64,000 nt of DNA from Octopus vulgaris (taxonomy: Eukaryota), in the NCBI GenBank assembly GCA_951406725.2, contig OX597838.1, positions 3,720,001 through 3,784,000 on the forward strand, in the 5' to 3' direction. The notes under the pieces are model-generated. The model worked only from the letters and a program-made list of their open reading frames with translations, did no database searches and was not told the DNA's origin. The stretch's first letter is position 1; every line of letters starts with the position of its first letter. The position numbers and the translations under genes were made by a program. Of this stretch, positions 32,427-62,757 are shown piece after piece.

Positions 32427-32771
32427 GCGCACATAGTTCCGCACGCTCCATAGAATATGCGCATGTACACACTCACACAAACACACATATACGAACACAT
32501 GAACATACATTCACATATGGTACTTTTAACGAATTGAAGAATTCTCTATAATGAAGAATTCCCTACAATAAATTTGCTATTATTAAGCGGGTGACTTAAT
32601 CTAAATTAACGGGAGATTTTAATGGAAGGTTTTAAGCCAGAGTACTCTTATATAGGAAGTTTGTATCATAGAATAGGTTGGAATCAAAACGGTTTCTGCT
32701 GAAATACATTGCTTTTGTTTCAAATAGTTTTTTTTAACGAAGAATTTTGTACAATAATTTTGTCAAGTTAT

Positions 32772-32975
32772 AAAGGGCAACAACCCTGAAACATGTCTGC
32801 AGATGTCTGACTAGCAAGGTGAAGCGGCTGACCTCCCCTGTTCGAAGGTTTGTAATGGACGCAGGTTCGTGTGTCAAATAGCTAGCTAGAGGCGATGGCC
32901 TCTTGGAGCTAATCAGCGACAGCTTTAGTCTTATATTTTTAGACTACCATATTAGTATGGCGATAACTATTAATA
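32772..32975. mobile_element. 204-bp structured insertion with 13-bp target-site duplication
   Basis: tttgtcaagttat at 32759-32771 and 32976-32988 flanks the insert. Confidence 0.6.
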
Positions 32976-33189
32976 TTTGTCAAGTTATTATTTTGAGAAT
33001 AAATTAACATTAAAATTTGATGCAAAGTTTTTATCTTGATCACGTTAATTCTTTTGTTACCATTATATATGTTGAAATACACTGCTTTTGTGACAATTAA
33101 TTCTGAAAATAATGAAGGATTTAGTAAAATAACATTGTCTGGTGATAGGGAATAAATTGTTATGAAAATTCTATGGAATATATTAAATT

Positions 33190-33440
33190 ACCACTGCGCC
33201 ATATGCCCGTGGACATATGGCGTAGTGGTTACGAGCGCGGGCTACTAACCCCAAGATTCCGAGTTCGATTCCAAGCAGGGACCTGAACAACAACAACACC
33301 GAAAAATACCTTAGGAATGAGAACCCAGGTTCGAAATTTTCCCAAGATACCTGAAGAAGGCTGGAGGGTATATCAGTCGAAACGTTGTGTTAACAACAAA
33401 CAAGACGAGGACAAATATCCGTCGAATGTAAATAATGAAT
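33190..33440 (+). mobile_element. tRNA-headed element with hammerhead-bearing tail
   Basis: A box tggcgtagtgg, B box gttcgattcc, an inverted head fragment upstream, and a hammerhead motif at 33345-33391; the tail is shared with 62572-62712. Confidence 0.8.
33345..33391 (+). ncRNA. minimal type I hammerhead ribozyme motif
   Basis: GAUAC-CUGAAGA-A-GGCUGG(agggtata)UCAGUC-GAAAC-GUU-GUGUU; stems I and II pair, stem III is the palindrome AACGUU. Confidence 0.65.
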
Positions 33441-34074
33441 ATATTATATGTAGATCACTTTATAACGGAGTTTGTAATAGAAACAACGTCAGTCACAAGA
33501 GGGTTGGCATCAAAATGTTTAAACACGACTTGTGCTGTGTTAGATTCTACGAGATCAAGGGATTTTTAGGTATATTGACCTTAAAAAAAATGGAACATAC
33601 ACACACTGCGAGCTGTGTGTTCTTGATACGCCGCGTTGTTAACAATATATGTGGCTGCCATTTTGTTGTATATGTAACGGCTGTAGTGTATGTCAGTAGA
33701 TGTTACGCCATCACCGCTGTCACGCTGTACTTGAGACACGGCAAAAGAATTGAATAATAAAAGCAGAGAGTGTTAATGTGTCGAGCCTTGAATGTTGTTT
33801 TGTTTCAACTTCAATGAAAGATGGAAAATATAATGTCATCGACGTTTACCACTCATCAAAAACAAGCACAGAGGGGTGGCCGTGGATTTATAGTGATGAT
33901 CGCTAGGGACAACAACAATATGGAAAACAATAACGACATGAAGAACCTCCAACTACTTCGCTATAAAATTATTATTGTGTTTGCTTCAAAAGGTTTCTAT
34001 ACACGCGTCTCTACACTTTCGTCTACGCACTGATACAGTATATTTGGATAAATACATTAAAACATGCACTCTTG

Positions 34075-34219: not shown

Positions 34220-34222
<3 letters not shown>

Positions 34223-34490
34223 GGCGCAATGAGCCAGTGGTTAGGGCAGCGGACTCGCGGTCGGAGGATCGCGGTTTCGATTCCCAGACCGGGCGTTGTG
34301 TGTGTTTATTGAGCGAAAACACCCAAAGCTGTACTCTTTCGCCTCGACTTTCTCTCACTCTTTCTTCCTGTTTCTTAAGTAACGCTGCGATGGACTGGCG
34401 TCCCGTCCAGCTGAAATGGGGGGGGGGGGGGGCATAAGCCACAGAAACCGGGAAAAGGGCCCATGAGCTAGGCTTGATAAGGGCGCATAA
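34220..34490 (+). mobile_element. tRNA-SINE family C, variant with a V-domain-like 3' part
   Basis: Head shared with 61076(-); gctgcgatggactggcgtcccgtccag...cagaaaccggga resembles the V-SINE domain. Confidence 0.75.
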
Positions 34491-61827: not shown

Positions 61828-62252
61828 AATATATATATACTCTTTTACTCTTTTACTTGTTTCAGTCATTTGACTGCGGCCATGCTGGAGGACCGCCTTT
61901 AGTCGAGCAAATCGACCCCGGGATTTATTCTTTTGTAAGCCCAGTACTTATTCTATCGGTCTCTTTTTGCCGAACCGCTAAGTGACGGGGACATAAACAC
62001 ACCAGCATCGGTTGTCAAGCAATGCTAGGGGGACAAATACAGACACACAAACATACACGCACACACATACATATATATATACATATATACGACAGGCTTC
62101 TTTTAGTTTCCGTCTACCAAATCCACTCACAAGGCATTGGTCGGCCCGGGGCCATAGCAGAAGACACTTGCCCAAGATGCCACGCAGTGGGACTGAACCC
62201 GGAACCATGTGGTTGGTAAGCAAGCTACTTACCACGCAGCCACTCCTGCGCC
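61555..62252 (-). mobile_element. two family A SINEs (5' half at 61555-61723; full copy at 61838-62252)
   Basis: Reverse complements of family A. Confidence 0.92.
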
Positions 62253-62355
<103 letters not shown>

Positions 62356-62443: not shown

Positions 62444-62709
62444 GCATGGAAAACAAGACTTTTAAAAGAATATTTGCATATCATTCGAATACAATGGGCA
62501 TTTTCCTTGTTTCTAGCTGTCTTTGTCTCTCAACCCACAAGAGTGAACAAGAGAGACAGAGAAATTCTCTAAGGAACAAGAACCCAGGTTCGAAATTTCC
62601 CCTAGAAACGTTGTGTTAACAACAAACAAAACGAGGACAAATAACCGCCGAATGTAAATAATGTAAATAATGTAAATAATGTAGATAATTCCTCATCTCT
62701 TAAATATAG

Positions 62710-62757
<48 letters not shown>

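What the first reader, a model, noticed from the sequence alone, without database searches (positions are those of the whole stretch)
33190..33440. tRNA-promoter head + inverted head copy + hammerhead tail: a candidate Penelope-mobilised ribozyme SINE
Seen: accactgcgccatatgccc-gt-ggacatatggcgtagtggt is a ~19-bp foldback, so the element begins with an inverted copy of its own A-box end. An intact B box (gttcgattcc) follows, then a (CAA)n linker, a second B-box-like ggttcgaaattt, a fully pairable minimal hammerhead (33345-33391) and an (aatgtaaat) tail. Known: SINEs normally borrow LINE 3' ends, inverted 5' duplications and minimal HHRs are PLE hallmarks, and Schistosoma Sm-alpha is a precedent for a tRNA-related repeat with an HHR. 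Inference: a Pol III-driven, self-cleaving non-autonomous element using PLE machinery, possibly transcribed in both directions from head-to-head promoters.
Basis: partly seen in the sequence, partly recalled or inferred. Interest (0 to 1): 0.8.

Follow-up and report, generated by a model that had tools for sequence, protein, structure and literature searches.

The report
Penelope retrotransposon with tRNA-type promoter
This is a short leftover copy of the end-repeat of a protein-coding Penelope-type jumping gene that carries a tRNA-style promoter, and that element is likely transcribed in full by RNA polymerase III, which normally makes only short non-coding RNAs.

Summary
The parts are real, but this is not a separate SINE. 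The 251-bp insertion (33186-33436, 10-bp target duplication) is the pseudo-LTR of an autonomous Penelope/Poseidon-type element with an RT + GIY-YIG ORF of about 830 aa. The tRNA-like head sits about 33 nt behind the ORF's stop codon. Insertions show the Penelope hallmarks: an inverted upstream arm in 43 of 85, and an extra 'tail' at exactly one end in 38 of 42 two-armed insertions. What is unusual: only about 130-155 nt separate stop and next start codon, half of it intact A/B boxes; about 85% of heads stop within a few bases of the expected Pol III start; and the 2.7-kb sense strand has no TTTT run, whereas other Penelope-like families in this genome do. Most likely the whole coding element was transcribed by Pol III, and the SINE-like copies are by-products of internal RT priming on its RNA. 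Pol III use is inferred, not shown; the T-run test alone is modest (P about 0.003-0.14 by null). The family appears dead (median 6% divergence).

The parts
33186..33436 (+). whole insertion: ORF-less copy of the pseudo-LTR of a Penelope/Poseidon-type element
   Evidence: bounded by 10-bp target duplication; same sequence lies behind and in front of the ORF elsewhere
33176..33185 (+). left target-site duplication GAATATATTA
33437..33446 (+). right target-site duplication GAATATATTA
33190..33210 (-). short inverted arm (first 19 nt of the head, A box only) plus GT centre; fold-back at the element's natural TGCCC-AC-GGGCA hairpin
   Evidence: 17 of 19 matches; ORF-linked copies read AC here, mostly; arm lengths vary among loci
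33211..33286 (+). tRNA-derived head with A box (33218-33228) and B box (33263-33271); stems no longer pair as a tRNA
   Evidence: sequence; boxes are the column majority over 261 arms; no ARAGORN or Rfam call; one weak match to a phage tRNA, E 0.05
33287..33299 (+). (AAC/AAT)n linker, very variable in length among copies
33317..33436 (+). first 40 codons of the element's ORF (MRTQVRNF...PSNVNN), overlapping the hammerhead
   Evidence: translation; same frame runs on into the ORF in L212, L202, L218; PDxG..PKRCVNN motif also at the N-terminus of P0001 (E 0.003 pairwise)
33346..33391 (+). minimal type I hammerhead; predicted cut 33386/33387; predicted to need a dimer
   Evidence: descriptor from PMC4209133
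33337..33340 (+). TTTT in this copy only (family has TTT); would stop Pol III before the hammerhead
   Evidence: sequence against family majority
33426..33436 (+). 3' end at the first of two family-wide end points (ORF +120); the ~28-nt longer 'tail' end is absent here
62546..62713 (+). second, 5'-truncated copy of the family; hammerhead core deleted, tail present

Best explanation
The insertion is an ORF-less copy of the end-repeat (pLTR) of a protein-coding Penelope/Poseidon-type retrotransposon whose pLTR contains a tRNA-derived A/B-box head, and that head likely served as a Pol III promoter for the whole element. Shown: the unit is head - linker - ATG - hammerhead - rest of ORF (RT, GIY-YIG) - stop - 33-nt spacer - head again, in tandem. 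Inferred: Pol III starts about 6-7 nt before the head and, meeting no TTTT, reads through the 2.7-kb unit into the next repeat. By analogy with the lizard Poseidon enzyme (PMC11167929), RT primes inside the RNA at two sites near ORF +120 and +148, on both strands of the cut target. Priming at the first pLTR copies only about 260 nt before running off the RNA's 5' end, which gives the abundant SINE-like solos; priming at the second gives ORF-bearing copies. At the RNA's 5' end the new cDNA can fold back on its own GCCC/GGGC hairpin or join the second arm, which gives the inverted head and the two-armed insertions. The hammerhead is probably uncut in these templates, since copies run straight across the cut site.
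For: [quoted passage not shown] Head behind the ORF in 25 of 30 and 22 of 30 loci; pLTR body directly in front of the ORF in 26 of 30, with the head too in 7, and 4 true ORF-head-body-ORF tandems. Inverted tail arm in 43 of 85 insertions; extra tail at one end in 38 of 42, both ends in 0; duplications of 9 nt or more in 22 of 40 (flank-only 17 against 0.47 in shuffled pairings). RNA start: of 42 copies that reach the head's start, 35 end between -14 and +12, none between -30 and -14, 7 run into the ORF; base by base, native sequence stops at -7 or less in all but 8 of 54 heads (one of the 8 by eye); genome-wide 246 of 2,521 exact heads carry the native upstream 7-mer, about 15% after allowing for 6% decay. 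Stop-to-ATG distance 129-156 nt in 4 tandems. No T4+ run in 2,685 nt of majority sense strand at depth 26 or more or in natural copy L202; observed/expected T4+ 0.17 in decayed copies against 1.4-3.5 in 12 of 13 other PLE groups, and 26 runs in 7,089 nt of five other families' majorities.
Against: No direct evidence of Pol III use. The T-run result depends on the null: P 0.003 (base shuffle), 0.03-0.04 (synonymous codons), 0.14 (order-2 Markov). G4+ runs are also absent (3.2 expected), although these are scarce in other families too. One other group (L031/L033) also has none, in 807 nt. Most of the control families look Neptune-type (seen for L037) and no same-clade control DNA was found. A weak TATAAG lies about 28 nt upstream of the inferred start, so Pol II could start at the same place. 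The head hairpin is among the strongest short hairpins of the unit (only 2 RNA windows and 4 cDNA windows in the ORF are as strong), so it may stall RT by itself. How an uncapped RNA would be translated is unexplained. The priming model is borrowed from a protein only 35% identical in kind.
Confidence: 0.6

Rival explanations
1. Same structure, but Pol II makes the coding RNA, starting at about the same place from a weak TATA at the ORF's stop codon or from an internal promoter; the tRNA head is a captured relic, or drives only the short RNAs.
For: TATAAG at -34 to -29 from the head; Drosophila Penelope uses an internal TATA-less promoter like those of LINEs (PMC2377424, passages); all autonomous retroelements are held to use Pol II (PMC10886601); the T-run P values are modest.
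Against: Does not explain zero T4 runs in 2.7 kb, nor intact A and B boxes with broken tRNA stems placed 14 nt behind the RNA start; little room for another promoter in 129-156 non-coding nt, whereas the L037 family has about 1 kb with repeated CCAAT and TGACGT boxes.
Confidence: 0.22
2. The pile-up of 5' ends marks an RT stop and fold-back at the small hairpin, not an RNA start; the head is a passively carried old SINE piece and solos are ordinary truncated PLE copies.
For: The hairpin is locally strong (-5.4 kcal/mol as RNA); fold-back junctions sit exactly on it (14 of 54 heads; 579 pattern hits, most loci counted twice).
Against: 33 of 54 heads end at or within the hairpin with little or no fold-back; an 85% stop is much for a 4-5-bp stem; no arm stopped within about 35 nt of the equally strong cDNA hairpin at -1534, which 12 arms passed (small and selected sample); leaves the T-run absence unexplained.
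Confidence: 0.1
3. One reading: solos form a true non-autonomous Pol III SINE family that amplifies itself using the PLE's protein.
For: Solos outnumber ORF-linked heads about 5 to 1 and keep A box, B box and tail; L224 and L245 share a rearranged palindromic core at unrelated loci.
Against: All three common non-CpG variants occur in both 57 ORF-linked and 204 solo arms; the head is part of the autonomous element; solos hold only 120-148 nt of ORF, less than the 172 nt the lizard enzyme needs (PMC11167929).
Confidence: 0.08

Closest known systems
Penelope/Poseidon clade PLEs, e.g. PAc of Anolis carolinensis (PMC11167929; parts 1-2 of 4 read)
   Same: Single RT + C-terminal GIY-YIG ORF, tandem pLTRs, ORF start overlapping a minimal hammerhead, two end points about 30 nt apart near ORF +120 that define the optional tail, arms on both strands.
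   Different: A tRNA-derived A/B-box head fills the pLTR; most copies are solos ending at its start; no T4 run in the sense strand. No such head is mentioned in the parts read.
tRNA-derived SINEs (SINE2), including the octopus families named in PMC4758252
   Same: tRNA-like head with A and B boxes, about 250 bp, thousands of dispersed copies with target duplications.
   Different: The head belongs to the autonomous element; the 'body' is coding sequence; ends come from internal priming, not a LINE tail. The sequences of the named octopus SINEs were not available for comparison.
Schistosoma Sm-alpha / Sj-alpha and non-LTR retrozymes (PMC6765202 and PMC7229834 passages; bioRxiv 10.64898/2026.07.22.740005 part 1 and passages)
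   Same: Pol III-type promoter followed by a type I hammerhead (Sm-alpha); derivation from PLE pLTRs (retrozymes).
   Different: Those are non-coding tandem repeats; here ORF-less copies are single or head-to-head, the hammerhead is the minimal type, and the same unit flanks a full ORF.
TRIMp3 elements Cassandra, Helenus, Ajax (PMC10886601 passages)
   Same: A small-RNA-derived Pol III promoter inside a terminal repeat.
   Different: Those are non-autonomous LTR elements of 0.3-1.3 kb, and that paper argues their autonomous partners must use Pol II; here the promoter sits in an autonomous PLE of 2.7 kb.

Membership tests
EN+ Penelope-like element | single ORF with RT and C-terminal GIY-YIG endonuclease | tested here: met
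   The local Pfam scan found nothing on two short C-terminal pieces; the assignment rests on motifs and homologs.
EN+ Penelope-like element | partial-tandem pseudo-LTRs flanking the ORF | tested here: met
   pLTR body before the ORF in 26 of 30 loci, 4 full tandems; head after the ORF in 25 of 30 and 22 of 30
EN+ Penelope-like element | inverted 5'-truncated upstream copy | tested here: met
   43 of 85 pattern-anchored insertions
EN+ Penelope-like element | 30-40-bp tail at one end only | tested here: met
   38 of 42 one end, 4 neither, 0 both; the tail is about 28 nt here and continues in frame into the ORF
EN+ Penelope-like element | minimal hammerhead in the pLTR | tested here: met
   both core strands intact in 125 of 251 arms, the commonest losses at CpG sites
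Penelope/Poseidon clade | no Zn-finger-like linker between RT and EN | tested here: met
   read from translations of L202, L203
Penelope/Poseidon clade | RT phylogeny places it in the clade | not tested
   no tree built; 35% identity to an Anolis protein (P0014)
tRNA-derived SINE | tRNA-like head with A and B boxes | tested here: met
   source tRNA not identified
tRNA-derived SINE | non-autonomous family with its own lineage, separate from the partner | tested here: not met
   head is part of the autonomous element; variants shared by ORF-linked and solo arms
tRNA-derived SINE | 3' tail from a LINE | tested here: not met
   3' part is the PLE's own ORF start
tRNA-derived SINE | transcribed by Pol III | not testable with these tools
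   indirect only: 5'-end pile-up and no T4 runs
non-LTR retrozyme | head-to-tail tandem of non-coding units, each with a hammerhead | tested here: not met
   none seen among 88 anchored loci (read by eye); one 150-bp array on C2 not examined
active hammerhead ribozyme | self-cleavage as monomer, dimer or with protein help | not testable with these tools
   the designed double-hammerhead dimer is not the lowest-energy fold (-15.1 against -21.4 kcal/mol for this copy; -24.3 against -31.2 for L097)

The most novel reading that the evidence does not exclude
An autonomous, protein-coding retrotransposon that swapped its Pol II promoter for a tRNA-derived Pol III promoter, purged its 2.5-kb reading frame of Pol III terminators, and mass-produces SINE look-alikes from its own RNA: a LINE-SINE pair in one element.
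Probability: 0.5. Interest if true: 0.88.

Novelty: new variant of a known kind. Interest (0 to 1): 0.72.

Why it matters
SINEs are held to use Pol III and coding retrotransposons Pol II (PMC10886601, PMC5786205 passages). A natural 2.7-kb Pol III transcript that encodes an RT-endonuclease would break that split and raise how such an RNA is translated. The thousands of solos also act as a natural 5'-end map of a PLE RNA and match, in a genome, the internal two-site priming shown in vitro for a lizard element. Practically, some repeats annotated as tRNA SINEs in such genomes may be PLE end-repeats. No paper describing a tRNA head in a PLE pLTR came up in nine full-text searches (most hits seen only as listings). 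Repbase, Dfam, SINEBase and the repeat library supplied with PMC13282606 were not seen and may already hold the family.

Tried and rejected
Rfam and ARAGORN: no call. First partner hunt by PF01541: 50 loci (L031-L080), none carried the tail; they are other PLE families and one probable SLX1-like exon. The partner was found from flanks of anchored copies instead. Source tRNA: only one weak phage tRNA match. RNA: no RNA holder listed; two RNA-seq runs of a related label laid on L271 gave equal strands, depth following copy number, and no begin/end peak at the head or the cut site, which is uninformative. Same-clade control DNA: viral and metagenome scans found no relative; all 30 loci from an RT search and 3 more fetched were the same family. 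Independent SINE lineage: looked for solo-only variants, none. Clusters of ORF deletion ends near 255 and 398 nt have different junction partners and were set aside as likely selection effects. RNase P cutting at the head's start was considered and dropped because acceptor and T stems do not pair (by eye). Earlier findings: none. The original Sm-alpha paper and the PLE-hammerhead dimer paper could not be read. Rows dropped before counts: of 90 anchored loci, 2 overlapping ones, then 2 second arms and 1 segmental duplicate, leaving 85; 2 of 42 lacked enough flank for the duplication test; overlapping duplicate loci were left out, but not out of the pooled rates. The column majority inherited a 10-nt gap from its starting copy in the downstream pLTR; the missing letters hold no T.

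Full report
Setting. The window lies in a 2.80-Gb, 227-contig, microsatellite-rich animal genome. An octopus is my inference from size and repeat landscape; it was not tested.

The observation. The hammerhead has the features that PMC4209133 (parts 1-2 of 4 read) lists for metazoan PLE motifs: an extra base before G10.1-C11.1, a short helix I and a palindromic, loop-less helix III, predicted to need a dimer. The insertion spans 33186-33436 between copies of GAATATATTA. It is a large family: one 21-mer occurs 6,909 times with 0 control hits; 24 of 73 independently found arms carry it exactly, so roughly 21,000 arms.

Finding the partner. Fifty GIY-YIG loci from a Pfam search did not carry the tail. 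Among 85 insertions taken in genome order by the 21-mer, 7 instead ran upstream into the coding end of a different PLE. Searching with that end gave 3,757 first-look candidates; in 25 of the 30 loci fetched the tRNA head follows the stop codon after about 33 nt (one of the 30 is the query). An independent RT search gave 22 of 30; in seven of the other eight the match stops short of the ORF's end or jumps to the pLTR body, and one is interrupted by an insertion. Searching with the N-terminus gave 442 candidates; 26 of 30 loci have the pLTR body directly in front of the ORF, 7 with the head as well, and 4 are ORF-head-body-ORF tandems. The column majority has one open frame of 797 codons, about 830 with the part inside the pLTR; homologs carry the same three Pfam domains. 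The window copy itself translates to the first 40 codons, and the PDxG..PKRCVNN stretch recurs at the start of the 55%-identical P0001. Copies are 3.7-9.6% from the majority, median 6%, and the longest open frame listed in the two C-terminal searches is 569 codons: the family looks inactive.

PLE hallmarks. An inverted tail arm lies upstream in 43 of 85 insertions. Of 42 two-armed insertions, 38 have the longer end on one side only, none on both; 22 of 40 have duplications of 9 nt or more around the whole unit. PMC8557442 (passages) describes both features. PMC11167929 explains them for a lizard Poseidon: RT starts at two internal sites, one 111-118 nt into the ORF, extends both target strands, does not need hammerhead cleavage, and needs the first 172 nt of the ORF. 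Here the two ends lie at about ORF +120 and +148.

The foldback. ORF-linked copies have a natural hairpin TGCCC-AC-GGGCA at the head's start (406 exact hits, centre mostly AC or its CpG decay). Palindromic heads are about as common (579 hits, most loci twice). Arms range from about 10 nt to complete, either side can be the short one, and short arms often jump by microhomology to the inverted tail. The foldback is therefore made at insertion, not inherited.

What is unusual. (a) Only 129-156 nt separate stop and next ATG (4 tandems), and 76 of them are the head, with intact boxes but unpaired stems. (b) 5' ends pile up at the head's start: 35 of 42 copies that reach it end there, none in the next 16 nt; native sequence stops at -7 or less in 46 of 54 heads; genome-wide 246 of 2,521 heads keep the upstream 7-mer. 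That is 14 nt before the A box, where Pol III would start (recalled knowledge). (c) The sense strand has no run of four T in 2,685 nt, against 26 in 7,089 nt for five other PLE families; decayed copies have 0.36 per kb against 2.1-5.9 per kb. Four T's end Pol III transcription in vertebrates (recalled; not known for this animal).

Against. The T-run P value ranges from 0.003 to 0.14 by null model, G runs are absent too, one small control group also has none, and no same-clade control was obtained. A weak TATAAG sits about 28 nt before the inferred start, which suits Pol II or Pol III. The hairpin is locally strong and may stall RT. RNA-seq said nothing on start, cut or strand. Translation of an uncapped RNA is unexplained; the A-rich linker before the ATG could help, which is speculation.

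Is it a SINE? It works like one in having a tRNA head and thousands of short copies, but it fails membership: the head belongs to the autonomous element, and the three common variants are shared by 57 ORF-linked and 204 solo arms (30 of the loci were chosen by likeness to the window copy). One shared rearranged core (L224, L245) hints at occasional secondary copying. This copy has a TTTT at 33337-33340 and only 120 nt of ORF, so it is likely a dead end.

Verdict. PLE pLTR identity about 0.95; RNA start set by the tRNA-type promoter about 0.65-0.7; Pol III reading the whole coding unit about 0.5. New variant of a known kind; interest 0.72.

Noticed in passing
window 32768-32860: A decayed minimal hammerhead of the U3-A8 type belonging to another repeat family; the same sequence lies in the flank of L049.
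   Followed up: no
window 62546-62713: Second copy of the family with the hammerhead core cleanly deleted and the tail present.
   Followed up: partly
L037 (G000:C16:20837296-20840559) and kin: A different, young PLE family with many intact 781-codon frames, a Zn-finger-like linker, a U3-A8 hammerhead and about 1 kb of 3' region with repeated CCAAT and TGACGT boxes and a TATA-like site; used as the Pol II-type contrast.
   Followed up: partly
L224 (C1:22.13 Mb) and L245 (C1:126.7 Mb): Two loci with unrelated flanks share the same rearranged head palindrome and derived letters in both arms; route of copying unexplained.
   Followed up: partly
G000:C2:16238319-16238940: Four hits of spacer plus head at 150-bp spacing (one gap of 299), an apparent small tandem array.
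   Followed up: no
P0001: An 847-aa homolog (55%) on a 2,758-nt contig keeps the hammerhead-overlapping N-terminal peptide, has equally low Phe (2.2%) and equally little non-coding room; its DNA could not be seen.
   Followed up: partly
hammerhead core position 7 (window 33355): One of only three common non-CpG variant sites in the pLTR is the free N of CUGANGA (T in 137, A in 65 of 251 arms).
   Followed up: partly
window 34221-34300 and 62190-62255: Two other tRNA-like SINE heads, unrelated in body to this family.
   Followed up: no
L230: Both arms are followed by the same flank, so the palindrome extends into host DNA: a larger inverted duplication.
   Followed up: no
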